From: Chrysomallon squamiferum
Lineage: Eukaryota; Animalia; Mollusca
DNA: 64,000 bases
NCBI GenBank assembly: GCA_012295275.1
Contig: CM022675.1
Span: 2,666,001-2,730,000 of the forward strand
Direction: 5' to 3'
In this document: piece after piece, positions 5,190 through 54,700 of the stretch
Layout of the letters: every line of letters begins with the position of its first letter
Position numbering within the stretch: position 1 is the first letter of the stretch
Notes under the pieces: generated by a model
What the model saw: the letters and a program-made list of their open reading frames with translations, nothing else
What the model was told of the DNA's origin: nothing
Database searches by the model: none
Position numbers and translations under genes: made by a program

Positions 5190-8100
5190 TCATTTAGAAA
5201 ATATATCTTTGTAGTTGAGAAGCATCAGTTCTATGACTTTCTGTTCAAACTTGGCAGCCATCAGACTGATCATGGGGTCTGTTTCAAGTGGCCTCATCAA
5301 CGTCGGCGCAAACACGATAGCCAGGTTCTCAGCACTCATCATCGTCTTCTCCTTCATCTCCGCAACTCTGAAACACAACATTTCAACTCTGAAACACAAC
5401 ATTTCAACATTCTAACTCTGAAACACAACACTTCAACATTCTAACTCTGAAACACATTTCAACATTCTAACTCTGAAACACAACATTTCAACATTCTAAC
5501 TCTGAAACACAACATTTCAACATTCTAACTCTGAAACACAACATACATTTTAACTCTGAAACACATTTCAACATTTTGTTTTTAACTCTTAAATGCCCAA
5601 CATTTCAACATTTCATTTTTAACTCTGAAACACACAACATTTAAACATTTCATTTTTTACTCTGAAACACAACATTCCGACATTCAATTGTTAACTCTGA
5701 AACAGTACAGTTCAACACTTCTGTTTTAACTATGAAACAAAATATTTCAATATTTCATTTTTAACTGTGAAAGAAAAAAAAACATTTCAGTATTTCCCTT
5801 TGAAACGAAAAACAAACATTTCAAGTTTCATTTTTGTCTGATGAAAGACAACACAGAACTCATCTAAAGGAGACAGAAGGCATTTCAGTATCTGGTAGTC
5901 TGCTCACCTCACTAAGTGATACAAAAGATATTTCAGTGTCTGAGAGTCTGCTCACAGTACTCACTTGACTAAGTGAGACAGAAGATATTTCAGTGTCTGA
6001 GAGTCTGCTCACAGTACTCACTTGACTAAGTGAGACAGAAGATATTTCAGTGTCTGAGAGTCTGCTCACAGTACTCACTTGACTAAGTGATACAAAAGAT
6101 ATTTCAGTGTCTGGCAATGAGCTCACAGTACTCACTTGACTAAGTGATACAAAAGATATTTCTGTGTCTGGCAATGAGCTCACAGTACTCACTTGACTAA
6201 GTGATACAAAAGATATTTCTGTGTCTGGCAACGAGCTCACAGTACTCACCTGACTAAGTGAGACAGAAGATATTTCATTGACTGGTAATGAGCTCACAGT
6301 ACTCACCTGACTAAGTGAGACAGAAGATATTTCAGTGTCTGGTAATGAGCTCACAGTACTCACCTGACTAAGTGAGACAGAAGATATTTCAGTGTCTGGT
6401 AATGTCTGCTCACAGTACTCACCTGACTAAGTGAGACAGAAGATATTTCAGTGTCTGGTAATGAGCTCACAGTACTCACCTGACTAAGTGAGACAGAAGA
6501 TATTTCAGTGTCTGGTAATGAGCTCACAGTACTCACCTGACTAAGTGAGACAGAAGATATTTCAGTGTCTGAGAGTCTGCTCACAGTACTCACCTGACTA
6601 AGTGAGACAGAAGATATTTCAGTGTCTGAGAGTCTGCTCACAGTACTCACCTGACTAAGTGAGACAGAAGATATTTCAGTGTCTGGTAATGAGCTCACAG
6701 TACTCACCTGACTAAGTGAGACAGAAGATATTTCAGTGTCTGGTAATGAGCTCACAGTACTCACCTGACTAAGTGAGACAGAAGATATTTCAGTGTCTGG
6801 TAATGAGCTCACAGTACTCACCTGACTAAGTGAGACAGAAGATATTTCAGTGTCTGACAGTCTGCTCACAGTACTCACCTGACTAAGTGAGACAAGATAT
6901 TTCAGTGTCTGGTAATGAGCTCATAGTACTCACCTGACTAAGTGAGACAGAAGATATTTCAGTGTCTGGTAATGAGCTCACAGTACTCACCTGACTAAGT
7001 GAGACAGAAGATATTTCAGTGTCTGACAGTCTGCTCACAGTACTCACCTGACTAAGTGAGACAGAAGATATTTCAGTGTCTGGTAATGAGCTCACAGTAC
7101 TCACCTGACTAAGTGAGACAGAAGATATTTCAGTGTCTGGTAATGAGCTCACAGTACTCACCTGACTATGTGAGACAGAAGATATTTCAGTGTCTGGTAA
7201 TGAGCTCACAGTACTCACCTGACTAAGTGAGACAGAAGATATTTCAGTGTCTGGTAATGAGCTGGGGCTAACTTGTTACAGATCTCCTTCACCTGTCTGA
7301 CTTTCTCAGTGTTGTCTACGTCACATTCTACAAAATTGTCAAATTCTGTTTAAAACACTGATACAAGTGAGAAGATGTGACAGCTAAAAGCTTTTCTGAA
7401 CTTAATCAAAAACACAAACATATCATTCCAACATTCAACTTCTTTAATTGTAATTACTCAAAAATAATTTAATGTTTATTTAATCATTCTCCGACCGTTT
7501 TCACAAGACGGTGACAAATGATTTCTTAATAGATGAAATTAGTTAATTAATATATTAGTTATTAATAAATGATTTTCCAAATGTATAAAATTAATAATGT
7601 GAACTCTTAGTTAAAGACTGAATTGAAATAAATTATTTCTAAAACACAGAAGAAGAGTCAAAGTATAATTATCACGTCTTTTCAATAGTGTTTAAGAACT
7701 TACTTATAACGTCTAACAGAAGCTTGTAGACATCAAATGAGACTAGTGGTATTGGAAGTAGTCTAAAATACAGTTTCAGTGCACTTGTGATTGTATTGAT
7801 GTCATCATACTTGCTGGCACTGATGTCAGCATTCTCAACATCTACAACAACAACAAAAATGTTTACATTTGTGTGTTCAAAAGTATAATCATGTGTATGT
7901 ATGAATATGTATCTATGTATATATGTTTGTATGTATGCAAGTGTGTATGTATGTGTGTTGTGTTACTCAGTATTTTTTTTTTTATATAGTTAATAATCTT
8001 CATATTACTTATCTAAACAAGCTGTCTGTGAACGTTTTTAAAAATGAATTTTAAAACATTTATGTAAATAAAATAAAAATGTAAACAACACATTTACATT

Positions 8101-11100
8101 AATCTCTAACCTTTATCAAACGCCATTCTGATTGATTCTACATCGTCATGGAAACCTGCTATCCGATACAATCCTTCTGAGTTCATACCTTTCAAGTAAC
8201 AAAAATAAACAAGTTATTTAGCTACTAATAAGATATACCTACAAATATTGCATAAAACAGTTTCATTTCAAATTTTATGTTGAGTTAATACATGATTATC
8301 ATGTTTCAGTTCACAAAAATTATAACATCATTGTCATAAAAAAAATAAAAATAGAAATAAAAATAACATTTTAATAATAATAACATCAACAACAACAACA
8401 GTAATAGTAATAATGATAAAACTACTAAAAGTACTACTACTATACTACTACTACTATTATTACTACTACTACTGCTACTACTACTACTACTACTACTATT
8501 AACAATAATAAATATAAATCAGTCAAATGTAAAGACAGATTTTTAAAGATCATATTGTGTAAGTTCACTGAAAAGAACATTTCTTACCTCTAGATTCTAT
8601 TTCTTTTATACATTTTTCTACAACGTGAGGTATCCCAGTCTTCTGAGCTTTGACCACTGTGGTCAGATCAGCACCGTAGATGCGCTTCACGTACTTCATG
8701 TCAGGCATGCAGTCGTTAGGAACTTTCTCTGAGCACTTCTTGTGAGCCTCAAAACCACAGTCTGAAATTTACTCTTCTCCTTGTCACATACTCTTTATTT
8801 TATTCAACAACAGTTAATATTACACAAACAACAGCTATTATTACTTCCACCACTAGTACCATTATTACTACTGTTACATCAACTACTACTGCTGCTATTC
8901 CTACCACTATTAGTCTACTACTGCTGCTATTCCTACCACTATTAGTCTACTACTGCTATTACAAGAGTTACATTAACAACTACAACTACTATTAGCCTAC
9001 CACTACTACTACTACTGCTAGCGTTACATCAGTAACTTCTACTCCTATTACTACTACTACTGCTATTACTATTACTATTGTCATTTCAACAACTACTACC
9101 ACTATTACTACTACTACTATTATTTACACTACTACTACTACTACTAGCCCACTATTACTCTTATTAATAAGACTGCTACTATTACTAGTGTTTCATTAAC
9201 ATCTACTATTAGTGGTATTTGTGATAGTAGTAGTAGTAGTAGTACTAGTAGTAGTGACTGCAGCAGTGTAGTTGTACTGTTACTACTGCTGCCTTTGCTG
9301 AGAGCTACATTATTATTAGAAAGTAATAAAAAAAGAAACAGAAGCCCAGTAGAGTTGTTGTGGTAGATGCTACTGTGTGCGCTGTTGTATATTTTAAACA
9401 AATATCTGACACTGACCTTGACATTTGACCCCTTGAGCTATTAATCCCCACATAAAGTTGGCACAAAAGTCACACCAGTGAAGGCCCATAAAATTCTGAA
9501 CCTGTGAAATTTAAATAAATTAAAATTAATAACCAAAATGTTGTTAAATAACCACGTATACATGTATTAGCCTCTCACAAACACTCATGTTGTTTTACTA
9601 TATAAAATTCTGAACCTGTGAAATTGAAAATTGAAAATTAATAACCAAAATGTTCTTATATAAACTACATATAGATGTATTAGACTCTCATGTTATTTTA
9701 CTATATAAAATTCTGAAGCTGTTGAATAGAAAATTTGAAATTAAATTTAGAAATAAACACGCTATCATTAGAAAATGTAGTTTACATACATATATATTAT
9801 TTTCTAATGATAGCGTGTTTATTTTAATGGATAGTTAAAACTGTTATGAACAGTGTAAGCAGTTTAAGGCTTTTTTTTATCATTGATATTAAAATACTTA
9901 CTAAATAGTGCACAATATCTCACACACACACACACACACTCACACACACACACACACACACATGCACACATAAACCAAAAAAACAAGATTCTATGTCTCC
10001 AAGGCAACAATATCCTCAGTTACCTTAAAACAATGAGCTTTCTCTGTGTCCTTCCAGTCAGGTGAGAAATCTTCATCATCATCCTCCTCCCCCTCGTCTG
10101 TCATCGACTCCTGCAGTGAAAACAATACAGTGTCTAGTGTGGACCAACAGTGAAAACAACAAAGTGTTTAGTGTGAACCAACAGTGAAAACAACACAGTG
10201 TCTAGTGTGGACCAACAATGAAAACAACAAAGTGTGGACCAACACAGCGTCTAGTGTGAACCAACAGTGAAAACAACACAGTGTCTAGTGTGAACCAACA
10301 GTGAAAACAATACAGTGTTTAGTGTGGACCAACAGTGAAACAATACAGCGTCTAGTGTGGACCAACAGTGAAACAACACAGTGTCTAGTGTGAACCAACA
10401 GTGAAAACAATACAGTGTTTAGTGTGGACCAACAGTGAAAACAACACAGTGTCTAGTGTGGACCAACAGTGAAACAATACAGTGTCTAGTGTGAACCAAC
10501 AGTGAAAACAATACAGTGTATATTGTGAACCAACAGTGAAAACAATACAGTGTCTATTGTGAACCAACAGTGAAACAATACAGTGTCTAGTGTGAACCAA
10601 CAGTGAAAACAATACAGTGTCTAGTGTGAACCAACAGTGAAAACAATACAGTGTCTAGTGTGAACCAACAGTGAAAACAACACAGTGTCTAGTGTGAACC
10701 AACAGTGAAAACAATACAGTGTCTAGTGTGAACCAACAGTGAAAACAACACAGTGTCTAGTGTGGACCAACAGTGAAAACAATACAGTGTCAAGTGTGGA
10801 CCAACAGTGAAAACAATAGTGTCTAGTGTGGACCAACAGTGAAAACAATACAGTGTCTAGTGTGAACCAACAGTGAAAACAACACAGTGTCTAGTGTGAA
10901 CCAACAGTGAAAACAACACAGTGTCTAGTGTGGACCAACAGTGAAAACAATACAGCGTCTAGTGTGGACCAACAGTGAAAACAATACAGTGTCAAGTGTG
11001 GACCAACAGTGAAAACAATACAGTGTCAAGTGTGGACCAACAGTGAAACAATACAGTGTCTAGTGTGAACCAACAGTGAAAACAACACAGTGTCTAGTGT

Positions 11101-13378
11101 GGACCAACAGTGAAACAATACAGTGTCTAGTACAGTAAAAACAAATTTTATTTTAAACTGCTTAAAAGGAATAAACGAGTGTCATAGCTACCACCATAAC
11201 ACATTATCTTGTTACAGAAACACACACACACAGAAATAAAATAATAAAAAATAAAATAAAATAAAGTAAAGTAAAAAAAAATAATAATAATAATCAATAA
11301 ATAAAAATAAAATAAAATAAAATAAAATAAAATGAAGTAAATAAATAAAAAATAAAACATAATAAAATAAAATAAAATAAATAAATAAAACAAAATGAAA
11401 ATCAATAAATAAAATAAAAAATAAATAAAATAAAATAAATAATAAAAAACAAAAAAAATAAATAAATAAAATAAAATAAAATAAAATAAAATAAAAACAC
11501 ATGAAAGAAAAAGATAAATGGAAAAACAATTAGTAAAACAGAAAAAAAATAAATGAAAAGAAATTATTTACCATTTATGTTATAAAAAAAGCAGTTAGTC
11601 ATAAAAAAATGTATTCATATATCATCTTTCAAAAACCAAATTAAACAATCCAAAATGAAAACCCTGCAGCTTAAATTAGGGAAAGATAATAAAAAGAATT
11701 TGACTTAAATACAAGGGCAATAACATTTGTATTCTAGAGCCTAGAAATAATCATTCAAGACCAAATAAACAGGTCAAAACAAATCTGGCATTAAGCAGAA
11801 AAATTATCATAAAAAAAATATATATATAAAATTTTACAATACATACTAAGTGTTTCATAACTTACAAATTAATTGTTAAAAGTTTTATAAAAACGAACAA
11901 ATTCCTAACTGTATATTTAAATCCCATAGTTCCAAATCATGGCATTACTTTATCAGAATTTAACATAAAAAAATAATAATAATAATAATAATAATAAAAA
12001 TAATTTTAAAAGTATACATATCTAGTTTCATAAAAAAGGTGAAGGGTAATGAAAAGACAAGCTGTTTAAAATTTAATAAAGTTGTTTTAATGTGTGAAAC
12101 AGGAAACAGTTTTCTGTTTGCTGGGCTGGAGAGGCAGACAGACAAAGAGCAATGATAAAGAGAAAAGTACTGACAGGGGTAGACAACTCTTGCTGCCTGG
12201 TGTCATCGCGACTGTCGGTGACATCGAGTCTCCGTGCTGTTTTGGCTTTGCTCCGTGTTTTGTACTTAGATTTGTAGTTGTACGCCAGGTACGGAGACTC
12301 CTCGTAGTTCGATTCGTTTGACAACGTGGAGATGTAGTCGGAGGCTCGCAGCTCAATGTAAAAGTGGATGAGGCCATCTGCCACGAGGTCGTGAACAGTG
12401 TCAAAACGTTTCTCACCAACAAAATGTTTTCCTTCATAATACAACTTGAAATTTTTGGTCTCTCCATTGAATCTGCAAAAAAGAATTAAGAATTAAACAA
12501 ACAGGACAACAACAGTAAAAACAATGACAAAATGTTTCACAGAAAAATGTATTTTTAAACAGAGAATTTAGAGAGGTTTCTTGATGGGAAAAGAGGAGAT
12601 TATAAATTGTCAGCATTAAAAGCATCAATTTTAAAGTAAATCAGATTTAGACCAAAATTGTCAAGTTCTGACTAAAGTAATCAGGTTTAGACTAAAATAG
12701 TCAAGTTTTGACTATAGAAATCAAGTTTAGACTAAAATAGTCAAGTTCTGACTTAAGTAATCAGGTTTAGACAAAAACAGTCAAGTTCTGACTAAAGTAA
12801 TCAGGTTCAGAGTAAGACTGTGAGTTCAGCAAGCTTACTAAGTAGATTTTACACAGCTCAAAGTAACTGTTTTAATTTCTTTTATCTGCCACAGTACTGA
12901 AAAATACAGTTAAAATATGTCTAATTCTGCCTGTTAGTAGTGTGTGTAATAACGTATTGCTAACACATTTAACTACGTGTCTACTGTTTATTGTTAAGCT
13001 AGCTCACCTGATAGCGAGAGTGAATGCATCAGGAGCCCGCTCACTCTTTCTCACGAGATAACAACCGTCTCCTTCACTTAGGAGCTGGTCCGTTTCTTCT
13101 CGACTGATACTTCCGTGAAATCTGCAAACAAAATGAACTTCTTTTACAAAATCTGTTGTTAATCATATCTTTAAACTCATTTAAACTAAAACAACAACAC
13201 TCGTAATAACAAAATAAATAATAATAAGAAGAAATTATGATAACAGTATTAATAACATCTAACGATGATAATATCAAATATGTAAGATTTTGGATTAGCT
13301 GAATTTGATGAATACTTTAAGTATTTTGTTTCAAATAATAATCATATATAAAACATTGTTAAATTAAAAAAAAAACAG

Positions 13379-13416
<38 letters not shown>

Positions 13417-13656
13417 AACTTTGATTTTCTCCTCATACTAAACTACTTTAGAAATGCTATTTTGTTTCTGTCATTGCTATAATCATTTATATTTATGAAA
13501 AGAAACTCAATTAAGTTCTGAGTAAGTAATAACCAATCAAGCAAACAACCAAAGACAATAAACAATGAAACAAACAAAGAAACAAACAAAAAAGCAAATA
13601 TATAAAATAGGTTTACTTACTCTTTACCATAGAAGAAGGGTCTGTTCAAAACCTGA

Positions 13657-13712
<56 letters not shown>

Positions 13713-16700
13713 TAACAATATACAATAAATAAAAAATATAAAAAAAATGAATGAATAAAAAAAACAGAAATATTAAAAGAAAAATAAACAATATAACATG
13801 TCACTTATTTTTTATTTTTTTGTTTTTTTTTATCTACAGTTGTAATAAAATTAAATTTTGCTCCAGTAGTATAACCTTTCTACTGCTTTAGTCACATTTT
13901 CTAACTTCCAGTTGTCACATAACAACCATATATAAATACAAATCACAGTTTAACACTTTAAATTCTGATTTATTACCATAAAATGTTCAATGTTTTCCTT
14001 AATTATATTTACAAACAATCACAATAATTTATTAAACTGTTGAAGTCAGTCATAGCCTGTTCAGACTAGATCATGATTTATCTGAAAGTGATAAGATAAC
14101 TACTGAAATTTAATAGTTTAACATTATGCAGACAGTACAATGAAACATAAAATGAAAAAGAAAACCAAGAAAAAAACCTTTTTATTTAAAAATTATTGAA
14201 TAAAATCTTGTGTGAAATGTAGCTACTACTTTAAACTAGACTAATCAAAATCACACACACACACACACACATGCAATCACACACACAAATACACATATTA
14301 ACACAAAAATTACTGAATATAATTCAAAATATGAAATATAGCTATTATTAAACTAGATCAGTGAAAATCATACACATACACTGAAATGAAAACATAAATA
14401 AAGAAATAAAAATAAAAATATCTTCTCTTTCATAGTATATAAGCAAACTAACTTAACTAACTAAATAAGCAAATAAATAAATAAATAAATAAATAACATT
14501 TAAATCTGCATTTTGCAAGAGGTTTAATTAATTACTAATTATTTTATCACCAGGCTTCAAAGTATTTCTGTGTTGCACTCACCTCTCTCTGACAAATTAT
14601 TCTTCTAGGTTTGGGTGCTTCCTGTTGCAAAGTGTATACTGTGTAATATAAAAATATCACATTGTAGTATGTATATATTGTGTTTACAATAATTACTTAC
14701 AGTATGTGTGTACAGTGTAATATAAAAATATCACACTGTAGTGTGTATATATTGTTTACAATAACTTACAGTATGTGTGTACTGTGTAATATAAAAATAT
14801 CACACTGTAGTGTGTATATATTGTTTATAATAACTTACAGTATGTGTGTACTGTGTAATATAAAAATATCATAGTATAGTGTGTATATATTGTTTACAAT
14901 AATTACAGTATGTGTGTAGTGTAATATAAAAATATCACACTGTAGTGTGTATATATTGTTTATAATAACTTACAGTATGTGTGTACTGTGTAATATAAAA
15001 ATTTCACATAGTATGTATATATGTGTTTATCATTCTAATAATAACTTACAGTATGTGTGTACTGTGTAATATAAAAATATCACACTGTAGTGTGTATATA
15101 TTGTTTATCATTCTAATAATAACTTACAGTATGTGTGTACTGTGTAATATAAAAATATCAGACTGTAGTGTGTATATATTGTTTATAATAACTTACAGTA
15201 TATGTGTACTGTGTAATATAAAAATATCACATTGTAGTGTATATATATTGTTTATAATAACTTACAGTATGTGTGTACTGTGTAATATAAAAATATCACA
15301 CTGTAGTGTGTATATATTGTTTATAAAAACTTACAGTATGTGTGTACTGTGTAATATAAAAATATCACACTGTAGTGTGTATATATTGTTTATCATTCTA
15401 ATATAAAAATATCACAGTGTGTGTGTAGTATAATTGTTTATAAAAATATCACATGTGTGTACTGTGTAAAAATATATATGTTGTGTATATTGTTTATAAT
15501 AACTTACAGCATATGTGTACTGTGTAATATAAAAATATCAGACTGTAGTGTGTATATATTGTTTATAAAAACTTACAGCATATGTGTACTGTGTAATATA
15601 AAACTATCAGACTGTAGTGTGTATATATTGTTTATAAAAACTTACAGCATATGTGTACTGTGTAATATAAAACTATCAGACTGTAGTGTGTATATATTGT
15701 TTATAATAACTTACAGTATGTGTGTACTGTGTAATATAAAAATATCACATTGTAGTGCATATATATGGTTTATAATAACTTACAGTATGTGTGTACTGTG
15801 TAATAAAAAAATATCACACTGTAGTGTGTATATATTGTTTATCATTCTAATAATAACTTACAGTATGTGTGTAGTGTAATATAAAACTATCACACTAGTA
15901 TGTGTGTATATATTGTTTATAATAACTTACAGTATGTGCAGTGTAATATAAAACTATCAGACTGTAGTGTGTGTATATTGTGTTTATAATAACTTACAGT
16001 ATGTGCAGTGTAATATAAAACTATCACACTAGTATGTGTGTATATATTGTGTTTATAATAATAACTTACAGTATGTGCAGTGTAATATAAAACTATCACA
16101 CTAGTATGTGTGTATACATTGTGTTTATAATAATAACTAACAGTATGTGCAGTGTAATATAAAACTATCACACTGTAGTATGTGTGTATATATTGTGTTT
16201 ATCACTCTAATAATAACTTACAGTATGTCTTCCATGTTGGCAGTGGCTGACTCTCCTCCCCATCTGCAAGAACAGTAACATAGTCATAATTACGTTGATG
16301 TCTGCATTGGTTACGATGATGTGAGTGTTTTGATCTGAAACTTACGTCTGTAACCTCCATTATACAACTCACTGCTCAATGTATATTACAATGTTCATAA
16401 AACTCACTGCTCAATGTATATTACAATGTTCATAAAACTCGCTGCTCAATGTATATTACAATGTTCATAAAACTCACTACTCACTGTATGTTACAATGTT
16501 CATAACACTCACTGTTCATTTTATATTGTGTCTTTGTCAAAATAAATTTAAAAAAAAAATTATTTAATCTTTGATGCACTGTAACCTGCAAACTGTTTAT
16601 CCTGACAAAGTACATAATATTTCAGTGTTTACAGAAAAATGGTGATGTTTTATTAATTCTGTATAAAAATAAAGTCAAGCAATCATCTCAGATAAAATTG

Positions 16701-18959
16701 AACATATTATTTTTCCTTTTTTTTCCTTTTTTTGTTTTGTTTTTAAATACAGAAATAAATATATATAGTAAAAGAATTTCAAACAGTGGTGCACACAAAG
16801 CTTTCACAAAAATGTTTCCTGTTTACAGCTGAGATTTCAGTTTCCTGCAATGAAAGTTGAAACATTTGTCATTATTGTAATCCTCTTTTAATACTGACAC
16901 AATAATTAACATCTTTCTTTGATCAGTAATTTTTTTCTCTCTTTTTTTTTTTTTTGTTGTTCCTTTGTTTCCTACAGGAAATGTAAATGGGTCAGTTCAA
17001 CTGTTATTATAAAAAGTAAGAATCTGCAACATCCTTGTTTATCAGAAAACACTGTAAGTCAACTCTCCTTTAGTAGACTCCAGAGTAATCTACACATTAA
17101 TCTACAAATTTAATCTTCAGTGAATTAACACTTCACACATTAAACTACAAATTGTCCATCAAGGAAAAAATTAATAAAATAAAATAAAATAAAATAAAAT
17201 AAAAAATAAAATAAAATAAAATAAAATAAAATTAGCAGAAAGTGTTTAGACAATTGGTAAATAAAAGTAAATAACAAATTTGTTTTTCTAATAAAGTAGA
17301 TTCTCTGAATCCTTTTTTCCTTTATCTTCCTTTGAACAGTGAGACTTATGTGAATAAATGATGAACACAGCCAATTAATCTGAGGTAGTCAGGAATTTGT
17401 CCTTGACCTTGCACAGTCCTTTTAATTTATTTGTTCAAACGAACAAAACAAAATGTTATCAGAAAATTAGTTATAAACTGTCTGAGAAGAGAAGAGTACA
17501 GTTTGACACTTCCTAGTCACTAACTTACATTGAAATTACTTCCTGGTATCTGACCTGCTGGTCACATGACCCCCATCATTATATACAGAGATTTACTTAT
17601 CCACTGAGAAAACATCACGACACTGGTAGATCAGTTTACACTGTAACAAGTGAGTCGTGAGCACCTACACGATAAAAACTAGAAATAACAACAGTAACTA
17701 GTTCAAAACTCCATACAAGTTTATATCTCTGTCATGTTTTGGGAGACGTTTTGTTTGTTATTTTTTTGCTTGTGTGTTTTTTGTTGATTTTTTTCCAGAA
17801 TTTAATGTGATAACTACAACTAGACAAAATAAAATATTTAACTAACATGATTATAAATCAACGAGCAAAATACATATTTATAAACAGTAATATTGTGATT
17901 GGTAAATATAAATAAATAATAAAATTTTATAATAATTACAGTAAAAATAACTTATCTTGATTATTATTATTTTTATTATAAAAAATAAAATAAAAAATAA
18001 CAGTTGAAAATTATCTCATTCAAGCAGAATAACAAACTGGAGTTTGTTTTTTGTTTATGTGAAACTGATCCTCAGCTACTAGCTCCGTCACTGTATTATA
18101 CACATTTTAAAACTGCCACCACTGATTATAAAACATTTATCACTCTATGCAGGTATTTGTTTTACAATGTAGTTATTAACAATCTCCTTTCAGTGATAAT
18201 TTTATTATGCATGTGTAATCATGTTTTCCTGGTTATGACACCAGTCTAAATACATTATATAACAGGAAATAATTTAATGCAAATACATTAATTTTCTCTT
18301 TTTTTAAATTTCAATTTTTATGTTATTTTTTATTTTTTATTTTTTTTTTTAGTAAGGATTAATGCAAAAGCTATATTTACTGTTAATATTAATAAAAAAT
18401 AAAATTGTATTTTTAATCTTAATGTTTTCGCATGACAATATGATTCAATATGGGATAATACATTGGTTCACACCACTCTACTCTGTTTTTATTATCACTT
18501 AACTATTTTTGAGATCTGAATACATCTGCACCACTATAAAAAGTCTATAGTATCCTACGATGAACACAGTTTAGATATTATGACATCACACACAAAACAT
18601 AAATGAATATATATATTACCTCCACACAAAGATATATGTTTCAACACAGCAAGAAATAACTAAACGACTAAAGATTATAATTACACAATTTACAGTATAT
18701 TCTTTTTTTACTGAAATCTGGATGAAAATGCAGACATGAGAATAAGGATGTAAACTCTGTACATATCCATTACCGTAACTCTTTATCTGCAGGACCATGT
18801 ACTTTAAATAATAATAATAAGATTAAGAAGAAGAAGAATACAAAGAAGAAGAAGAACTATTCAACTAACAAACGAAATTATAAATAAATAGTGTTCATCC
18901 GCAATATTTTGTGTCGCTTATAGAAATGTTTGTAATAAAAATTTAAACAAATAACTGCA

Positions 18960-19003
<44 letters not shown>

Positions 19004-19167
19004 ATTTTTTAAAAAATATTTTGTTCATTATCATGACATAATGATAATCTAGATTGTAATATCTAGTCTTAGAAATGAAATGCCGACCTATCTACTACTA
19101 TAAATAAATGTAATAAACCTAAAAATAAAATCTTACAGTGCATCTTGGTCGCCCTCTCTTTTACCAT
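5190..19167 (-). CDS. CHN1: Chimaerin (SH2 + C1 + RhoGAP; N-/beta-chimaerin-like), 13 coding exons
   Basis: Hand-assembled GT-AG exons with consistent phases: 19167-19137, 16263-16222, 14638-14583, 13652-13621, 13121-13008, 12472-12175, 10110-10024, 9501-9417, 8761-8588, 8188-8111, 7841-7704, 7327-7219, 5367-5190. The translation includes [22 protein letters not shown]2 [14 protein letters not shown]...YLVRKS, C1 [50 protein letters not shown], and Rho[40 protein letters not shown]. It is probably co-orthologous to CHN1 and CHN2. The first exon is the least certain. Confidence 0.93.
5364..5770. repeat. ~29-bp tandem repeat spanning the acceptor of the last chimaerin exon
   Basis: Unit aactctgaaacacaacatttcaacattct reads tgttgtgtttcag|AGTT on the minus strand. 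Copies degrade with distance from the exon. Confidence 0.9.
5860..7263. repeat. 51-bp minisatellite, about 27 copies: end of chimaerin exon 12 plus its splice donor
   Basis: Minus-strand unit gctcattaccagacactgaaatatcttctgtctcacttagtcag|gtgagtactgtga is identical to the real exon end ([15 protein letters not shown]) plus the donor. Confidence 0.97.
8400..9270. repeat. Degenerate (ACT/TAG)n low-complexity tracts flanking chimaerin exon 9
   Basis: actactact runs at 8420-8500 and 8840-9150, and agtagt at 9225-9255. Confidence 0.8.
10114..11130. repeat. 33-34-bp minisatellite, about 30 copies, abutting the chimaerin exon 7 acceptor
   Basis: Unit cagtgaaaacaatacagtgtctagtgtg(a/g)accaa. On the minus strand the last copy runs straight into cag|GAG at 10113-10110. 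Confidence 0.95.
11232..11496. repeat. (AAAAT)n low-complexity tract
   Basis: Imperfect aaaat/aaat runs. Confidence 0.85.
12630..12815. repeat. ~41-bp tandem repeat, about 4 copies
   Basis: Unit tcaagttctgactaaagtaatcaggtttagactaaaatag. Confidence 0.8.
14631..16228. repeat. ~69-bp minisatellite, about 22 copies, filling chimaerin intron 2; the unit is a mini-intron plus a 12-nt exon-derived spacer
   Basis: Minus-strand unit: gtaagttattataaacaatatatacacactacagtgtgatatttttatattacacag|TACACACATACT. The terminal copies provide the real donor (16221) and acceptor (14639). Confidence 0.95.
16366..16516. repeat. 35-bp tandem repeat, about 4 copies
   Basis: Unit aactcactgctcaatgtatattacaatgttcataa at 16366, 16401, 16436 and 16471. 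Confidence 0.9.
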
Positions 19168-20227: not shown

Positions 20228-39885
<19,658 letters not shown>

Positions 39886-41587: not shown

Positions 41588-41633
<46 letters not shown>

Positions 41634-44095: not shown

Positions 44096-44535
44096 TGACT
44101 AGTAGCCACTGAAAGTTTTATTGTCAGAATTGTATTCTTTAAATAAATGAAGGTTTCAGTTTTACATTCTGTTTCTTCATTTCTTGTAAACTGGAATTTT
44201 CATACACAGATCTTGATACATTTTGACAAAGAAGAAAACTTTAATTTTAACTAAATTAGTTTTCTGAAAATATTTAATGTTCTTGTTTGTCTTTATTACA
44301 CTGACAATAACTATAAACTGTGGACACAATGTATTATATCAATTTACAACAGTATTTTTTTTCTAACCATAAGCAATAACTATACTTAAAAAACTGTATA
44401 ATTATCAGTAATAATTTGAAATAAGTAATTCAAAATGTTCATCAACATAATTTTACTGAACTGATGTAACCAGTACAAAGCAGATTGCCATTTCCTCAGA
44501 AAATCTATTGTAAAACTGTGTGTGTGCTTATGTGC

Positions 44536-44537
<2 letters not shown>

Positions 44538-44622
<85 letters not shown>
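44538..44622. repeat. Compound (AG)n(GT)n microsatellite
   Basis: Directly visible. Confidence 0.95.
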
Positions 44623-45731
44623 CATTTTAAAATAGGTTATCTGTAGAGTTCCTGTCAGTTCTGAACTGGTTGCACTCTTAGAATTATTTGATAAACATTT
44701 TTTTCAATATATACACGTGTGTGTTTGTGTTAAAAATAAAAACTTTGTTAGCAGGAACATTCACTTTTCAGTAACTTGCTACAACTGTTTCATGAACTCA
44801 AAACACTTGTTTCAGTGGACAGTCACTATCAACCTACAACAAAGACAGTGAAAAATAAGCTGTAATACCTAACTGTACAAAACATATCACATATATGAGT
44901 CAGCCACAGTGTAACCATGGTGACGAAAAGAACACTGATGAAACCTTGTTCCACAGACGTATATGGATGGCAGTCTGGTAAACTCAGTTACACTTGTTTT
45001 TTTTGGTTTTGTTTTCTCTCCAACGATTACTTTATACATCACAGCACATTGATTAACATCCTCCCTGTCTGGTCAAACCACACCACTTTCTCCTCTCTCA
45101 CACCATACAGTGTCTTAGTTCAAAGTAAAACTGTCTTCTATCTTTTAAAAAAATCTATTATTATTAACATTATTATTATTTTAAAAATAACCTACATCTT
45201 TATGGACATCTAGCTTTGATACTCATTTAAAAAAAAAAAAATGTATTACCATTATATGAAAAAGCCAAATTAATTTGCTCATTTCTTCGTTAGTTTGAAC
45301 ACTAAAGCCGTACACAAGTTTTGAGATTATTTAAATTCTTAAAATTAAAAATACTCTTTAATTAATTATAATATAAAAATATAAAAAAGTGGAAGTTAGA
45401 GTAACTACATTAATTTCATTCCATCCGGAAAATCAATTCGAATTTTTTTTTTTTTTTAAATAATTATTATTTAAATGTGTAAAAAAAATGCTTTTAGACG
45501 TTACTATGGTACCAGAGTGTTCCTGCAGACAACACGAGAATACATTAAAACCAAGAACCTCTCCAGTCTTCAGCCATGTTGTTCAAGCTAAAACTAGGGA
45601 GAGGAGGAAAGCAGTGACGATCCACCAGACACAAGAAAACAAACGTTTGTACGTATCTGCCTCTTGTTGTTTCCACTGACATCATGAAAGAAAACTGTGA
45701 CAGACAGACAGACAGACAGACAGGCTGTTCG

Positions 45732-48700
45732 TCAGAGGATAACACAACATTTACAATATCTCTGCCTCCCACCACCCACTGAGGGTGGGGGAGTCACAGG
45801 TGCGAAGTAGGCGTGTACTTTAATATCAGGAAGTCGAGTCTGCAAGTAAAGTTTAAATATATATATATACATATATAGATCATCACATCATAGTACCTCT
45901 GTTATAGTATATTAAATTATATTACATCTATATGTCATTTTTATGTTATATCACATTTATGTTATTTTATTTTCATGTATTATGAGACTGGTGTAGTGAT
46001 ATACAGTATTATGGTGTAGTGACATACAGTATTATGGTGTAGTGACATACAGTATTATGGTGTAGTGACATACAGTGTTATGTGTAGTGACATACAGTAT
46101 TATGTGTAGTGACATACAGTATTATGTGTAGTGACATACAGTATTATGTGTAGTGACATACAGTATTATGTGTAGTGACATACAGTATTATGGTGTAGGA
46201 CATACAGTATTATGGTGTAGTGACATACAGTATTATGTGTAGTGACATACAGTATTATGTGTAGTGACATACAGTATTATGGTGTAGGACATACAGTATT
46301 ATGGTGTAGTGACATACAGTATTATGGTGTAGGACATACAGTATTATGGTGTAGTGACATGGTGTTATGAGGCTGGTGTAGTGATATACAGTATTATGGT
46401 GTAGTGACATACAGTATTATGGTGTAGTGACATACAGTATTATGGTGTAGGACATACAGTATTATGGTGTAGTGACATGGTGTTATGAGGCTGGTGTAGT
46501 GATATACAGTATTATGGTGTAGTGACATACAGTATTATGGTGTAGTGACATACAGTATTATGGTGTAGTGACATACAGTATTATGGTGTAGTGACATACA
46601 GTATTATGGTGTAGTGACATACAGTATTATGGTGTAGTGGTGTAGTGACATACAGTATTATATGTGTAGTGACATACAGTATTATGGTGTAGTGACATAC
46701 AGTATTATGTGTAGTGACATACAGTGTTATGGTGTAGTGACATACAGTATTATGGTGTAGGACATACAGTATTATGGTGTAGTGACATGGTGTTATGAGG
46801 CTGGTGTAGTGATATACAGTATTATGGTGTAGTGACATACAGTATTATGGTGTAGTGACATACAGTATTATGGTGTAGTGACATACAGTGTTATGGTGTA
46901 GTGATATACAGTGTTATGGTGTAGTGATATACAGTGTTATGCTGTAGTGACATACAGTGTTATGGTGTAGTGACATACAGTACTATGGTGTAGTGACATA
47001 CAGTGTTATGGTGTAGTGACATACAGTGTTATGCTGTAGTGACATACAGTATTATGGTGTAGTGACATAAAGTACTATGGTGTAGTGATATACAGTATTA
47101 TGGTGTAGTGATATACAGTATTATGGTGTAGTGACATGGTGTTATGAGGCTGGTGTAGTGATATACAGTGATATGGTGTAGTGATATACAGTGATATGGT
47201 GTAGTGACATACAGTATTATGGTGTAGGACATACAGTATTATGGTGTAGTGACATACAGTATTATGGTGTAGTGACATACAGTATTATGGTGTAGGACAT
47301 ACAGTATTATAGTGTAGTGACATACAGTATTATGTGTAGTGACATACAGTGTTATGGTGTAGTGACATACAGTATTATGTGTAGTGACATACAGTGTTAT
47401 GGTGTAGTGACATACAGTATTATGGTGTAGGACATACAGTATTATGTGTAGTGATATACAGTGTTATGGTGTAGTGACATACAGTATTATGGTGTAGTGA
47501 CATACAGTATTATAGTGTAGTGACATACAGTATTATGTGTAGTGACATACAGTGTTATGGTGTAGTGACATACAGTATTATGGTGTAGTGACATACAGTA
47601 TTATAGTGTAGTGACATACAGTATTATGTGTAGTGACATACAGTGTTATGGTGTAGTGACATACAGTATTATGTGTAGTGACATACAGTGTTATGGTGTA
47701 GTGACATACAGTATTATGGTGTAGGACATACAGTATTATAGTGTAGTGACATACAGTACTATGTGTAGTGACATACAGTATTATGGTGTAGTGACATACA
47801 GTATTATGTGTAGTGACATACAGTGTTATGGTGTAGTGACATACAGTATTATGGTGTAGGACATACAGTATTATGGTGTAATGATATACAGTATTATGGT
47901 GTAGTGACATACAGTCTGAGACTGGTGTAGTGACATGGTGTGACACAGTGAGGTTATGTTTAAAGTCTGAGCCACTCACTATGTGTAGTGACATACAGTA
48001 TTATGGATGCCACAGAGTTATGAGCTGACATACAGTGTTACAGCTCAATCCTCTCCAGACTCTGACAGGACATACAGCAGGTGTTCTAGAGATGCGTCAG
48101 TGATCAGAGGACAGTTATCCAGTTCCAACACTTCGAGGTGTTCTATAGCACATGGACTTTCTCCTAGCTGTCGAATTCCTTCATCAGTTATCAGCTCACA
48201 GTGAGAGAGACTCTGTGTAATCATAGTAACAATCATAGTAGTAAGTTGTTGTTGCAGTAGAAATAATACTAGTAGTAGTATTAATAACAGTAATAATAAT
48301 AATGATGGTGGTAGTAATAGTTGTTATAGTAATAATAATAGCAGTAACACTAATAATAACATTAATAGTAGTAGTAGTCATAGTAGTAGTAGTAGTAGTA
48401 GTAGTCATTGTAGAAATAATAGTAGAAGTAGTAGTAGAAATAATATAACATAAATAACAATCACATTGATGATGATGATGATGATGATAATAATAATGAT
48501 GATGATGATGATAAAGGTAGTAGTAATAGTAGATATAAATCTAGTAGTGGTAGCTGCTGTCATAATAATAAAAATAGTGGTAGTAATAGTTGTTATAGTA
48601 AGTTAATACCAACAGCAGTACACTAGTAATAAAATTAACAGTAGTAGTAGACATAGTAATAGTAGTAGTAGTAGTACAAATAATATAAGAAACAAATCAG

Positions 48701-51700
48701 AAGTAGTATGAAATAATAATAAATAAATAATAATAATAATAATAATAATAATGAAGATGATGATGATGATGATGATAAAGGTAGTAGTAGTAATAGTAGA
48801 AATAAATCTAGTAGTGGTAGCTGCTGTCATAATAATAAAAATAGTAGTAGTAGTAGTAATGCTAGTAGTAGTTGAATTACCAACAGCAGTAGTACTAGTA
48901 GACTAAGTAATAGTACTAGTAGTCAAAGTAACAGTAGTAGTAGACTAAGTAATAGTAGAAGTAGACTAAGTAATAGTAGTAGTAGTAATACTTAGACTAA
49001 GGAAACAGTAAAAGATCTGTCTCTGTCAATCAATCTCTGTGTCTGTCAGTGTGTCTGTCTGTCTGTCTGTCAGGCTGTCTGTTTGTCTGCTTGTCAGTGT
49101 GTCTGTCTGTCTGTGTGTCTGTCAGTGTGTCTGTCTGTCTGTCTGTCTGTGTGTCTGTCTGTCTGTCAGTGTGTCTGTCTGTCTGTGTCTGTGTGTCTGT
49201 CAGTGTTGTTGTCTGTCTGTCTGTCAGTGTTTCTGTCAGTCTGTCTGTGTCTGTCAGTTTGTCTATCTGTCTGTCAGTGTGTCTGTCTGTCTGTCTCTGT
49301 GTCTAACTGTAAATTACTTACCAAGGCTGCAAGTTTATTACAGTACAAAGCAAGATGAGCAAGAGTTGTGTCTGTTATCTAAAAATAGAAACTGAGAATG
49401 TTTCATCTGTGTTCAAAATATTTAAATATAGAAATGTTGTTGTTCAAAATATCTAAAAAATAGAAACTATGAATACTTTATCTGTGTTCAAAATATTTAA
49501 ATATGCAAATGTTTATGTTTTGAAAATCTTAAAATGGAATTTGAGTATTTCATGTTCAAATTATCTAAACACAGACTCTGTCAATAAAATATCTTGAAAA
49601 TATCTCAAATTAGTCAAGTGTATCCCAGCCAAAAAATCTAAAAATAACATCTGTCATCAGAATACTTAAAAACAGAAACTTTAAACATTTTAATTATTTT
49701 CGTGTTCACCAACAGAACACATTGAGCTAGTACAGTGTTAAAAGAACTGAGTTAACTCACCTGAATACACACCAACAGAACACATTGAGCTAGTACAGTG
49801 TTAAAAGAACTGAGTTAACTCACCTGAATACACACTAACAGAACACATTTAGCTAGTACAGTGTTAAAAGAACTGAGTTAACTCACCTGAATACACACTA
49901 ACAGAACACATTGAGCTAGTACAGTGTTAAAAGAACTGAGTTAACTCACCTGAATACACACTAACAGAACACATTTAGCTAGTACAGTGTTAACTCACCT
50001 GAATACACACCAACAGAACACATTGAGCTAGTACAGTGTTAACTCACCTGAATACACACTAACAGAACACATTGAGCTAGTACAGTGTTAACTCACCTGA
50101 ATACATTCTTCTAGATCCATCTTTTCCAACTGATGACAGTTCTGCAATATGTAAATATATAAAAAGATAAACACAAACTAAGTTATACTTAAATACAAAC
50201 TAAGTTATACTTAAACACAAACTAAGTTATACTTAAACACAAACTAAGTTATACTTAAATACAAACTAAGTTATACTTAAACACAAACTAAGTTATACTT
50301 AAACACAAACTAAGTTATACTTAAATACAAAGTGAAAGTTAAATAAATACAAACTAAAGGATAGGTAAACTAAGTGAAAGTCAAATACTAACTACTAAGT
50401 CATGTACAAACTAAGTGATAGTTAAATTCCAAGTCATAGTTAAATACGAACTATGTGTAGTTAAATACTAAGTGATAGTAAAATTCAAACTGATAGCTAA
50501 ATACAAACTAAGTGATAGTTTAATACAAAATAATTATAAACACACACAAAGTGAAATTTAAATACAAAAAAATAAATGGTAGTTAATTACTAAGTAATAA
50601 TAAAATATTAACAAACTGATAGTCTAATACAGACTAAATGATAGTTGAAAACCAAATAATAGCTACATACTAACTAAGTGATAGTTAAATACTAAGCAAT
50701 AGTTAAACTAAGTGATAGTTAAACACTAACTAAGTGATAGTAAAATACAGACCCTGGCTAAAGCCTGAAATCCACTGTCAGTGAGATGTGTACAGCTTGC
50801 AACTTCCAAAGTTCTGAAAATTTTAAAATAACTTGAAAAATTCTCTTGTGTTTTAAAACAACTTGAAAAATCTCTTGTGTTTTAAAATAACTTGAAAAAC
50901 TCTTGTGTTTTAAAACAACTTGAAAAATCTCTTGTGTTTTAAAACAACTTGAAAAATATCACTTCAATATTTGTTGGGTTTTTTTGGTTTTATTTCATTT
51001 TTACTCCAGATATTTAAATCTTAGTTTTTTTCTTTTTTTCTTCATTAAATAAATAAATAAATAAAACTATCGAATTTTAAGTTACATTTTAAGTTTCATT
51101 CATGCAGATATATTATGAAAAAAAAAAGAAGAACTGATAAATTTACAAAACGTGTTTTTAAAAATGACGTAGAAGTGTAAACAGAAAAATGTAAGATGAA
51201 AAGAGAACTTACTCAAGTTCATGGCAACCGTTGCCGAGCGATGTGAGAGCAGAGTCAGTGAGGCGTGGACAGTTGGACACACACAGAAACAGAAGCCCGT
51301 GACACTTGTTACTAATGATGTGAATAGCTTCGTCTGTGATCAGCTGTATTCAGTAAAAACAACTTGTTAGAAAACACACTGTCTTGTGTAACATGAATGT
51401 ATTATACGTAACATATGTATTAAATGTAACATGAATGTATTATACGTAACATATATATATATTAATGTAACATGAATGTATTATACATAACATATATGTA
51501 TTAAATGTAACACAAATGTATTATACGTAACATATATGTATTAAATGTAACATGAAAGAATTAAACGTAAAATATATATGTATTAAATGTAACATGAATG
51601 TATTTTGAGTACAGGAATATATTAAGTGAAACATGAATGTATTAAGTGTGATATTAATGTATTAAGTGTAACATAAATGTATTAAGTATAACATAAATGT

Positions 51701-54700
51701 ATTAAGTGTAACATGAATGTATTAACTGTGATATCAATGTATTGTTAATGTATTACGTGTAACATGAATGTATTGTTAATGTATTAACTGTGATATCAAT
51801 GTATTGTTAATGTATTACGTGTAACATGAATGTATTGTTAATGTATTAACTGTGATATCAATGTATTGTTAATGTATTACGTGTAACATGAATGTATTGT
51901 TAATGTATTACGTGTAACATGAATGTATTGTTAATGTATTACATGTAACTTGGATGTATGAAAACAGACCTGACAACCCTGCAAGTTGAGTCTGCGTAGA
52001 TGAGGACAGTGTTCTGCTAGGTGACGAATTCCATCATCACTGATCTGAAATACAAAAATATCTTACAGAAAACACAATCACTGATCTGAAATACAAAAAT
52101 CTCTTACAGAAAACACAATCACTGATCTGAAATACAAAAATCTCTTACAGAAAACACAATCACTGATCTGAAATACAAAAATCTCTTACAGAAAACACAA
52201 TCACTGATCTGAAATACAAAAATCTCTTACAGAAAACACAATCACTGAAATGAAATACAAAAATCTCTTACAGAAAACACAATCACTGATCTGAAATACA
52301 AAAATCTCTTACAGAAAACACAATCACTGATCTGAAATAAAAAATCTCTTACAGAAAACACACACAACAAAATATTTTACTTTCATGTCTGAAATTTCAA
52401 AACCAATAACTAAACAAACACAAACATTTTTAGAAAAAAATATAAAATAAAGAAAATTAAATTTAAAAACTTATTTTCGTAATTTGTAAAATCTAAATTA
52501 TAATTTGTTAATAAAAAGGAACAGTTATAAATTTTGAACGAAATATACCATTTAAAGAGTTATTTGCATACAACATTTTACAAAATGAAACCTATAATTA
52601 TTTTAACAATCGTTTGTAAAATGTATAAACTAAAAAAATAAACAATGATGTAATAATTACTGTAAATAGTATTTCAAAGCGACTACTGAATAAATGATAA
52701 ATACCAAAGAACAACCACGTCCAATAAAAATAATCAGTTTGTTGCAGCCTTTAGCGAGAGCCTCAATCCCATCATTAGTGATTGAAGTGCACCAGGATAT
52801 ATCTAAGTACTCCAGCTGTCGACACCCATCACTGAAACATTGTTACATACTTACTAAAATACACAAAATTACAGCAAGTATTAAATGTTTTATTAATACA
52901 CAAAATTGTTTATTACTAATATTATATTTCAAAATACACAAAATTATTAAATATTATATTTTAAAATACCATAAAATTGTTAAATATTTATTAAAAGACA
53001 CGAAATTATTTAAATATTATGTTTTTAAAATATACAAAATTATTAAGTATTTATTAAAATACACAAAATGATTACAAATGTTTTAAAATACACAAAATTA
53101 TTACATATTCTGTTTATTAAAATATACAAAATTTTCCAAAAAAATTCCCCCCCCCCACTAAGATACATAAAATCTTAATATCAAAACTTTTAGCAACATA
53201 TTCAGTTTCAGAGTAACAGGTGTACACTATAATAGAAGTAAGTTTTCACTCATACACACATTACTAGTTTTATAATGCAGTTATTTAACAAATAAATATT
53301 TCTTCAAATAAAATTCTACCATATACTTCTTACTCATAATCTGTCAATTTTAAAATGTCATTATTTTAAAATTCTAATTTATATATAAATACAAACACAG
53401 TCAGTGCTGTCATTCATCTTCAATTTTTAGAGATCATACTGAAATAAATACGTCAGTAAGAGTCATATGAGTCACTGCATGTTACTTCAATGTCATACTG
53501 TCTTACTATAGCATGTTAGCATTGTTATATTAAAATTATAGTGTGTTGTGTTAATCATTCTGATGTTAGTGTTCAGTCAGATTGATGTGATGTGTAACAC
53601 TAGTGCCACACTGATTTATTATGTGTAATATAAATGTTTTAAGTTTATCACTGAGTTGAAGGTTTCTGTTAAGATTTGTATTGTTAGTTGTCATGTGGAA
53701 AAGCACTATTACTGTTTATTTCTCATACAGAACAAGGTATGTGATGAGGATGATAATATACTCTCTTATCATCACAAGCTATTTTTATCAAGTATAATAT
53801 TTTAACTAAAATGTTAATGAATGCTAGGATGTAGCAAGAATTACCTGAGAGCTTTTAGAGAATTGTTTGTGATGTCTGGACATGAACTGAGAATTAACTT
53901 CAACAGTTTCTCACTGTTTCTTCCTAAACTAATACATGTTCTGTAAAACAAAAATATTTAAGTTTCACTCAAGTCAAACAGTGACTAAACAACAATATTT
54001 AACAATTTCACTCACGTCATACAGTGACTAAACAAATATTTAACAGTTTCACTCAAGTCAAACAGTGACTAAACAAATATTTAACAGTTTCACTCAAGTC
54101 ATACAGTGACTAAACTAAAATATTTAAGTTTCACTCAAGTCAAACAGTGACTAAACAAATATTTAACAGTTTCACTCAAGTCATACAGTGACTAAACTAA
54201 AATATTTAAGTTTCACTCAAGTCATACAGTGACTAAACTAAAATATTTAACAATTTCACTCACATCATACAGTGAGTAAAATAAAAATATTTAACAATTT
54301 CACTCACAACATACAGTGACTACACTAAATATTTAACAGTTTCACCCACATCATAGTGAGTAAACTAAAAATATTTAACAGATTTGTTCAGACAAAACTA
54401 AACACTCATACAGCCTAAAGGAAAGAAAAACAAAACATAATATGGAAAAGCTTCTCACAAATCAGTAATTTTTTTACAGTTGTTCAGATTCAACACTTCT
54501 ATATTTCTGCACTGTTCTGCAAATGTTCTGAAAATAAAAGTAACGATTGTAAAAATAAATACATTACATTCAGAAAAGCTCTGATCAAGATGTATATCAA
54601 GACTTGGTAAAGAGATTTTTTTAGTTACAGGAAAAAATACAAAACGTTGATTTCTTTTATTTAATGAAAAATAGAATACTTCAAATAATTTTATCTTTTC

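What the first reader, a model, noticed from the sequence alone, without database searches (positions are those of the whole stretch)
5364..52362. Tandem repeats repeatedly seeded on exon-intron junctions (decoy splice-site arrays) in three unrelated neighbouring genes
Seen: at about 10 loci the repeat unit contains the real splice site plus adjacent exon bases, and the functional junction is the terminal copy of the array. Loci: chimaerin 5364-5770 (acceptor), 5860-7263 (donor), 9489-9720 (acceptor), 14631-16228 (both); YME1L1 23520-23859 (acceptor), 32536-32745 (donor), 32868-33037 (acceptor), 33093-36610 (donor), 38115-38689 (acceptor); FBXL 49706-50105 (donor), 52037-52362 (acceptor). Several more arrays stop a few nt from an acceptor (10114, 26122, 50820, 53950). 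The units are unrelated in sequence and length (about 26-91 bp), so this is not one transposon or satellite family. Inference: either a lineage-specific process amplifies DNA preferentially at splice junctions (for example, splicing-coupled R-loops or repair at exon/intron composition boundaries), or originally short introns expanded by random duplication and only expansions into the intron survived. Either way the spliceosome must pick one real site among up to dozens of near-identical ones.
Basis: partly seen in the sequence, partly recalled or inferred. Interest (0 to 1): 0.88.

Follow-up and report, generated by a model that had tools for sequence, protein, structure and literature searches.

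The report
Snail splice-junction "mirage" repeats
In three neighbouring genes of a snail, short stretches that straddle exon-intron borders have been copied head-to-tail into the introns, a repeat type already known from lancelets and humans; RNA at the three borders tested uses the normal splice site, so the copies are likely harmless, though they sit on borders about twice as often as chance predicts in this one window.

Summary
Observation confirmed. In a gastropod related to Gigantopelta aegis, 12 of 36 intronic tandem arrays span a splice junction (13 of 87 junctions). All 11 listed loci hold, one only weakly. Short-read DNA contigs support the arrays tested, and RNA contigs use the exon-adjacent copy at 3 of 3 junctions tested. 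This is a known kind: amphioxus "mirages" and the human F7-type VNTR; the scan has noted it in annelid, shark and urchin DNA. That the functional site is the terminal copy follows from duplication geometry, and 113 of 117 decoys would give a premature stop. Enrichment depends on the null: 4.7x on present introns, 2.4x (P=0.002) on collapsed introns, 1.1x (P=0.37) when each array stays in its own collapsed intron. Two things keep a junction bias alive: all 9 arrays with units of 50 nt or more span junctions (post hoc), and a related species has its own junction arrays at two other junctions of the same gene. Most likely neutral mirages in a very repeat-rich genome; junction-biased seeding about 25%. 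One window, picked for this pattern; no genome-wide test was possible.

The parts
5189..19167 (-). Chimaerin gene, 13 coding exons (19137-19167, 16222-16263, 14583-14638, 13621-13652, 13008-13121, 12175-12472, 10024-10110, 9417-9501, 8588-8761, 8111-8188, 7704-7841, 7219-7327, 5189-5367)
   Evidence: Exons 2-13 align at 87% over 465 aa to P0002; exon 1 placed by tblastn of the P0002 N-terminus
20228..39885 (+). YME1L1 gene, 19 coding exons, open 737 aa
   Evidence: 81% over 701 aa to P0001; open frame; five exons joined in RNA contigs
45732..61352 (-). FBXL2/FBXL20-like gene, 15 exons; the 3' half of exon 14 is frame-broken in this sequence
   Evidence: 71% over 359 aa to P0122
5363..5777 (-). 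Acceptor mirage (21/29/35-nt units, 5 exon nt) on the last chimaerin acceptor (5368); 10 AG-intact decoys, 8 identical to the real site
5860..7263 (-). Donor mirage, 57-nt unit (45 exon nt), donor 7218; 22 GT-intact decoys, all giving a stop in the inserted part
9488..9744 (-). Acceptor duplication, about 103-114-nt unit (14 exon nt), acceptor 9502; 1 intact decoy
   Evidence: not reported by TRF
14632..16228 (-). Whole-intron mirage, about 69-nt unit holding donor 16221, a short intron and acceptor 14639; 19 donor and 14 acceptor decoys; 13 in-frame 12-nt pseudo-microexons
23520..23858 (+). Acceptor mirage, 82-nt unit (24 exon nt), acceptor 23834; 2 intact decoys
32538..32749 (+). Degenerate donor mirage, about 26-nt unit, donor 32547
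   Evidence: Weak (score 33); sequence spanned by DNA contigs of two studies; RNA contigs use 32547
32868..33037 (+). Acceptor duplication, 91-nt unit (52 exon nt), acceptor 32985; the decoy 91 nt upstream is skipped in RNA contigs
   Evidence: DNA loop in X1 and X3; RNA joint in X6 and X7
33093..36610 (+). Donor mirage, 69-nt unit, donor 33138; 26 GT-intact decoys; split by a 1441-nt unrelated insert (33980-35420)
   Evidence: RNA loose end joins 33137 to the exon at 36755
38111..38689 (+). Acceptor mirage, 68-70-nt unit (33 exon nt), acceptor 38656; 6 intact decoys; fills most of the intron
   Evidence: acceptor position supported by homology
49376..49513 (-).
   Evidence: TRF; score only 22
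49707..50105 (-). Donor mirage, 63/49-nt units (9 exon nt), donor 50096; 6 decoys identical to the real site
   Evidence: contig break at 49736 and a 93-nt loop-sized contig
52036..52362 (-). Acceptor mirage, 41-nt unit x8 (9 exon nt), acceptor 52045; 6 intact decoys
   Evidence: contig break at 52340 and 71-nt loop-sized contigs
10114..11131 (-). Near-miss array, 34-nt unit, ends 3 nt before acceptor 10111
25689..26124 (+). Near-miss array, 27-nt unit, ends 3 nt before acceptor 26127
50821..50957 (-). Near-miss array, 29-nt unit, ends 7 nt before acceptor 50814
53946..54381 (-). Near-miss array, 41-nt unit, ends 5 nt before acceptor 53941
   Evidence: high-depth piece 54117-54209

Best explanation
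These are 'mirage' minisatellites: tandem copies of exon-intron borders, likely born as ordinary local duplications in a very repeat-rich snail genome and likely tolerated because the spliceosome keeps using the copy attached to the whole exon. Step 1 (inferred): a 25-100-nt segment duplicates in tandem and grows by slippage or unequal exchange; this happened at least 36 times in the 44 introns here. Step 2 (geometry, follows from the sequence): when the segment straddles a donor, only the first copy stays joined to the full exon; for an acceptor, only the last. The functional site is therefore always terminal. Step 3 (shown for 3 junctions, inferred for the rest): splicing uses that exon-adjacent copy, as exon definition or oriented scanning predicts; leaks to decoys would nearly all carry a premature stop and be removed by NMD (predicted). 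Step 4 (inferred): duplications inside exons, or ones that divert splicing, are purged. Arrays at intron edges may also persist longer because deletions there risk the splice signals. With short exons (median 95 nt) and collapsed introns of about 330 nt, 5 to 11 of the 12 spanning arrays are expected with no targeting at all.
For: Real in reads. RNA contigs of two samples (one study) use the terminal site at 32547, 32985 and 33138. 113 of 117 GT/AG-intact decoys give a premature stop (one search counted 116 of 120; I dropped 3 chance hits at acceptor 49379). 24 of 36 arrays do not span a junction. Expected spanning rises from 2.6 to 5.0 (pooled collapsed), 7.3 (36 introns collapsing below 750 nt; 12 of 32, P=0.04) and 10.8 (own intron, P=0.37). 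Units under 50 nt span at the chance rate, 3 of 27 vs 2.8. Spanning units are longer than intronic ones (P=1e-4), the direction random placement predicts. A sham GT/AG control gave 14.1% vs 13.8% for real sites (inflated, see Tried and rejected). Same structures with normal splicing in amphioxus (PMC3087553 passages; PMC3902484 passage) and human F7, 6-16, CBS, LAMIN B2, PDGF (PMC1557585 introduction and discussion).
Against: The pooled collapsed null still leaves 2.4x (P=0.002). All 9 arrays with units of 50 nt or more span a junction (expected 2.2 pooled, 5.3 own-intron, P=0.003; post hoc). Non-spanning arrays also crowd the edges: 11 of 24 within 30 nt (expected 3.1 pooled, 7.3 own-intron, P=0.04). 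Array number does not grow with collapsed intron length (Spearman -0.30, P=0.046). A related species has junction arrays at two other junctions. No clear microhomology at the breakpoints of two clean arrays (read by eye), so the seeding route is not shown.
Confidence: 0.6

Rival explanations
1. Junction-biased birth: long (50-100-nt) duplications arise preferentially at exon edges in this snail lineage, for example because nucleosomes sit on GC-richer exons and place lagging-strand flap errors there, or because co-transcriptional splicing or R-loops expose these spots.
For: 9 of 9 long-unit arrays span junctions and no array with a base unit of 50 nt or more lies wholly in an intron. Exons 45% vs introns 29% GC. 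The relative (run X10) has 83-nt and 55-nt units over a donor and an acceptor where this species has none. Loss of flap endonuclease raises tandem duplications in yeast (PMC13167724 abstract). Nucleosome-on-exon and nucleosome-phased Okazaki fragments are recalled, not from a call.
Against: Post hoc split, n=9, in a window chosen for this pattern. It becomes 9 of 10 if the 62-nt higher-order unit at 51716-51959 is counted apart. Only spanning arrays can be seen in the relative, so it gives no null. An earlier scan note reports chance-level frequency in an annelid (e1-9992352, unchecked). PMC13167724 has no occurrence of 'splice', 'intron' or 'exon'.
Confidence: 0.25
2. Short introns are inflated: arrays are kept because they lengthen introns that were too short for this lineage's splicing (apparent floor near 250 nt).
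For: The 17 array-free introns are all 253 nt or longer, whereas 11 of 27 array-bearing introns collapse below 250 nt and hold 16 of 36 arrays.
Against: Collapsing understates ancestral length if arrays replaced unique DNA; the relative's introns look longer than my collapsed values (weak); 44 introns only.
Confidence: 0.06
3. The decoys are functional: they tune expression through NMD, or add 4-residue microexons in chimaerin.
For: Many decoys are identical to the real site; 13 in-frame AG-12 nt-GT units in chimaerin intron 2 would keep the frame open.
Against: Arrays are not shared with the relative at the FBXL junctions seen; RNA contigs show only the terminal site; identity among copies is expected from recent expansion.
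Confidence: 0.06
4. Assembly artefact: the arrays come from read stutter or polishing.
For: FBXL exon 14 carries frame-breaking patches that match the neighbouring 23-nt array (31 of 108 9-mers vs 3 of 4379 in all other exons), so the sequence may be unreliable next to arrays.
Against: Independent short-read contigs reproduce the duplications tested; copies carry graded divergence and one array holds an insertion.
Confidence: 0.03

Closest known systems
Amphioxus 'mirages' (Adh3, globins BflGb6/BflGb9, TnC, PGBD5). PMC3087553: abstract passage and section 16 passages seen. PMC3902484: one passage seen. Canestro et al. 2002 (PMC117041): not held, not read.
   Same: Minisatellite-like tandem copies of donor or acceptor borders, units of 10-160 bp, many but not all copies keep AG/GT, normal mRNA reported, several genes per genome.
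   Different: Here a gastropod; 13 of 87 junctions across three adjacent genes; up to 26 decoys; one unit holds a whole intron with both sites; independent cases in a related species. Copy-number or somatic instability not tested here.
Human F7 IVS7 37-bp VNTR and similar minisatellites in 6-16, CBS, LAMIN B2, PDGF. PMC1557585: abstract, introduction and discussion read.
   Same: First monomer spans the donor; identical pseudo-sites follow; the most upstream site is used (in 6-16 and CBS two further sites are also used).
   Different: Those are single donor-side loci; here 8 of the 13 junctions are acceptors and the density is far higher. The scanning mechanism was shown in mammalian cells, not in snails.
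Microhomology-mediated tandem duplication as the seed of tandem repeats. PMC13167724: abstract and start of introduction seen.
   Same: Offers a generic seeding route, mostly neutral evolution and purging from coding regions.
   Different: No clear microhomology at two clean breakpoints here; the paper does not deal with splice junctions.

Membership tests
Mirage minisatellite | Tandem, minisatellite-like copies | tested here: met
   TRF and lag scan, units 26-103 nt, about 2-26 copies
Mirage minisatellite | Unit spans an exon-intron boundary, donor or acceptor | tested here: met
   11 of 88 junctions strong, 2 weak; exon positions fixed by homology
Mirage minisatellite | Many but not all copies keep AG/GT | tested here: met
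   For example 14 of 21 acceptor copies at 14639, 22 of 22 donor copies at 7218, 6 of 7 at 52045
Mirage minisatellite | Normal splicing is kept | tested here: met
   3 of 13 junctions tested, all use the terminal site in RNA contigs X6 and X7.
Mirage minisatellite | Length instability between haplotypes or somatic cells | not testable with these tools
   Only short-read contigs were available; they collapse arrays
F7-type donor VNTR | First monomer contains the donor and downstream pseudo-sites are identical | tested here: met
   17 of 22 identical at 7218, 20 of 26 at 33138, 6 of 6 at 50096
F7-type donor VNTR | Pseudo-sites are functional but out-competed by oriented scanning | not testable with these tools
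   Needs minigene mutagenesis
Single satellite or transposon family | Shared unit sequence across loci | tested here: not met
   Consensus units differ in sequence and length and each matches its own host junction; judged from the lists, no all-against-all alignment run
Microhomology-mediated tandem duplication | Short direct repeat at both ends of the seed unit | tested here: inconclusive
   About 0-1 nt at the 41-nt and 63-nt arrays by eye; other ends eroded

The most novel reading that the evidence does not exclude
In this snail lineage, long-unit tandem duplications are born preferentially at exon edges and turn over fast, so that 10-15% of all splice junctions carry a species-specific ladder of decoy sites. 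The genome would then hold thousands of natural experiments in donor and acceptor choice and reveal a splicing- or chromatin-coupled mutation process.
Probability: 0.25. Interest if true: 0.72.

Novelty: new member of a known kind. Interest (0 to 1): 0.38.

Why it matters
As neutral mirages this extends a little-studied repeat type to gastropods, at high density and with independent cases in a related species; my searches found no such report for molluscs (open-access library only). It also warns that sequence beside such arrays may be mis-assembled. If the long-unit bias holds genome-wide, it would link exon architecture to where duplications arise, and give many acceptor-side test cases for how the spliceosome chooses among identical sites.

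Tried and rejected
No whole genome is held, so no genome-wide test. (blind exon finder) was swamped by array hits; models were built by hand and checked by homology. One search had a self-overlap bug (floor score 34) and was redone. The sham-site control showed no enrichment (329 of 2329 sham sites, 14.1%, vs 12 of 87 real, 13.8%); I weigh it lightly because it counts the far ends of the junction arrays themselves, degenerate array interiors and microsatellites. The collapsed version gave 3.3% vs 13 of 87, but omits the intronic part of spanning units and is not length-matched, so it overstates. A candidate chimaerin exon at 16346-16371 beside the 35-nt array was rejected: the homolog's N-terminus maps to 19137-19167. 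Three 'decoys' at acceptor 49379 are chance AT-rich matches and were dropped. The FBXL exon 14 donor is uncertain and was left out (87 of 88 junctions). The array list of 36 was curated by me; merging and unit choice are judgement calls; dropping 6 microsatellite-derived or low-complexity arrays gives 12 of 30 vs 4.4. RNA runs X6 and X8 did not cover FBXL exons, so nothing follows on splicing there. A metagenome scan for FBXL exon 14 found nothing. Canestro 2002 could not be read. No supplementary files were opened.
Full report
Setting. The window is AT-rich animal DNA (22-37% GC per 2 kb). No whole genome is held. The closest named proteins are from the vent snail Gigantopelta aegis, so this is a related gastropod; I did not determine the species. 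Tandem repeats are reported to be abundant in this family (about 10% of one peltospirid genome vs about 3% in Pomacea; PMC7736800 passages). Three genes were modelled and checked by homology: chimaerin (87% over 465 aa), YME1L1 (81% over 701 aa) and an FBXL2/20-like gene (71% over 359 aa to Lottia). They have 44 introns totalling 44,273 nt, which shrink to 21,731 nt when arrays and microsatellites are collapsed.

An anchored search from each of the 88 splice sites found 11 with a strong copy in their own intron that includes the GT or AG and 5 to 40+ exon bases; 74 of 88 sites scored 22 or less. The YME1L1 donor array at 32538-32749 is degenerate but recognisable. A weak extra case lies at 49376-49513. 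The four near-miss arrays end 3-7 nt from acceptors. In chimaerin intron 2 the 69-nt unit carries a donor, a short intron and an acceptor, so the whole small intron was multiplied.

The arrays are real where tested. Eleven runs were listed; six were laid. On 30790-33150, DNA runs X1 and X3 (two studies; one may be the source of the window) both show the 91-nt duplication as a 102-nt piece plus a 49-nt piece at about twice the local depth (18.3 vs 8-13; 113.9 vs 55-72), and both span the 26-nt donor array without a difference inside it. On 49310-54600, X3 has high-depth pieces at 51716-51807 (328 vs about 77), 50170-50243 and 54117-54209, and its single-copy contigs break at 49736 and 52340. 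One caution: the 3' half of FBXL exon 14 is frame-broken by patches matching the adjacent 23-nt array (31 of 108 9-mers, vs 3 of 4379 in other exons); a polishing error is my inference, untested.

Splicing. RNA contigs X6 and X7 (two samples, one study) join 32546 to 32986 and continue from 33137 into the exon at 36755. The exon-adjacent copy is thus used at 3 of 3 junctions tested, out of 13. Of 117 GT/AG-intact decoys (120 counted, 3 chance hits dropped), 113 would give a premature stop and 4 stay open in frame; chimaerin intron 2 also holds 13 in-frame 12-nt pseudo-microexons. That the working site is terminal needs no special mechanism: in a tandem duplication across a donor only the first copy keeps the whole exon, and across an acceptor only the last.

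Is it more than chance? Of 36 curated intronic arrays, 12 span a junction. Expected: 2.6 on present introns (P=3e-6), 5.0 on pooled collapsed introns (2.4x, P=0.002), 10.8 when each array is kept in its own collapsed intron (P=0.37), and 7.3 of 32 when the 8 longest collapsed introns are dropped (P=0.04). Uniform ancestral introns of about 200 nt would remove the excess; the collapsed median is 331 nt. The own-intron null is partly circular, since it absorbs any tendency of arrays to follow junction number rather than intron length, and arrays here do not increase with collapsed length (Spearman -0.30). A sham-site control found no enrichment but is inflated; a collapsed version overstates it. 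Post hoc, the excess lies wholly in long units: 9 of 9 at 50 nt or more (expected 2.2 pooled, 5.3 own-intron, P=0.003) against 3 of 27 below (expected 2.8); it is 9 of 10 if one 62-nt higher-order unit is counted. All of this comes from one window picked for the pattern, so the P values are optimistic.

A relative does it too. Run X10 (another organism; exon pieces 82-94% alike) shows a 113-nt contig at depth 53 (others 9-17) holding the FBXL donor at 53844 with the same letters on both loose ends, implying an 83-nt unit, and a joint going back 34 nt with 21 letters between at the acceptor 51344, implying a 55-nt unit. This species has no spanning array at either site. So such arrays arise repeatedly and independently: at least 2 of the roughly 16 exon ends in that stretch, similar to 13 of 87 here, though the table was cut and only spanning arrays are visible this way. 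X10 contigs run 111, 131 and 285 nt into introns that collapse to 73, 123 and 52 nt here, a weak sign that 'tiny ancestral introns' is not the whole story.

What is known. Tandem repeats spanning exon-intron borders are described in amphioxus as 'mirages' (Adh3, two globins, TnC, PGBD5), with variable units, many intact AG/GT signals and normal mRNA; their origin is called unclear (PMC3087553 passages; PMC3902484 passage). I was led to the term by earlier scan notes and checked it in those papers. In human F7, 6-16, CBS, LAMIN B2 and PDGF a minisatellite's first unit spans a donor; in F7 the pseudo-sites are functional but the most upstream site wins (PMC1557585). The scan noted the same in annelid, shark and urchin DNA, and one note reports chance-level frequency in an annelid; these notes are unchecked. 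Five searches of the open-access library found no mollusc report and no genome-wide test of junction enrichment (listings only).

Verdict. A dense, well-supported set of mirages in a new animal group: a new member of a known kind. Most likely neutral duplication shaped by geometry and survival (0.6). A real junction bias for long duplications remains open (0.25) and can be settled by one genome-wide count. Interest 0.38.

Noticed in passing
window 47975-48090 (-), FBXL exon 14: The 3' half of this conserved exon is frame-broken by three patches identical to the neighbouring 23-nt array (45989-47936). Probably an assembly or polishing error; gene conversion or an array born from this exon end are not excluded.
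   Followed up: partly
window 33980-35420: A 1441-nt single-copy insert splits the 69-nt donor array; no terminal inverted repeat found and no ORF over 147 aa. Possibly a transposon remnant.
   Followed up: partly
window 14639-16221 (-): Unit-to-unit joints form 13 AG-12 nt-GT pseudo-microexons that would add four residues in frame to chimaerin.
   Followed up: partly
all 44 introns: No intron is shorter than 253 nt, and all 11 introns that collapse below 250 nt carry arrays.
   Followed up: partly
run X10 laid on window 51315-51348 and 53843-53891: A related species has its own junction-spanning repeats (55-nt and 83-nt units) at FBXL junctions that lack them here.
   Followed up: partly
window 54897-54936 and 50649-50752 (-): Two further FBXL donors have old partial copies of their first intronic bases (scores 33 and 38, 0-1 exon nt); not counted as spanning.
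   Followed up: no
window 63457-63576 (+): An exon of a fourth gene (RUN-domain-like by recall, not tested), with a short 20-nt repeat ending about 15 nt before its acceptor.
   Followed up: no
window 26732-30778: A 4-kb array of a 31-nt unit (about 130 copies) fills YME1L1 intron 10 and stops 24 nt before the acceptor.
   Followed up: no
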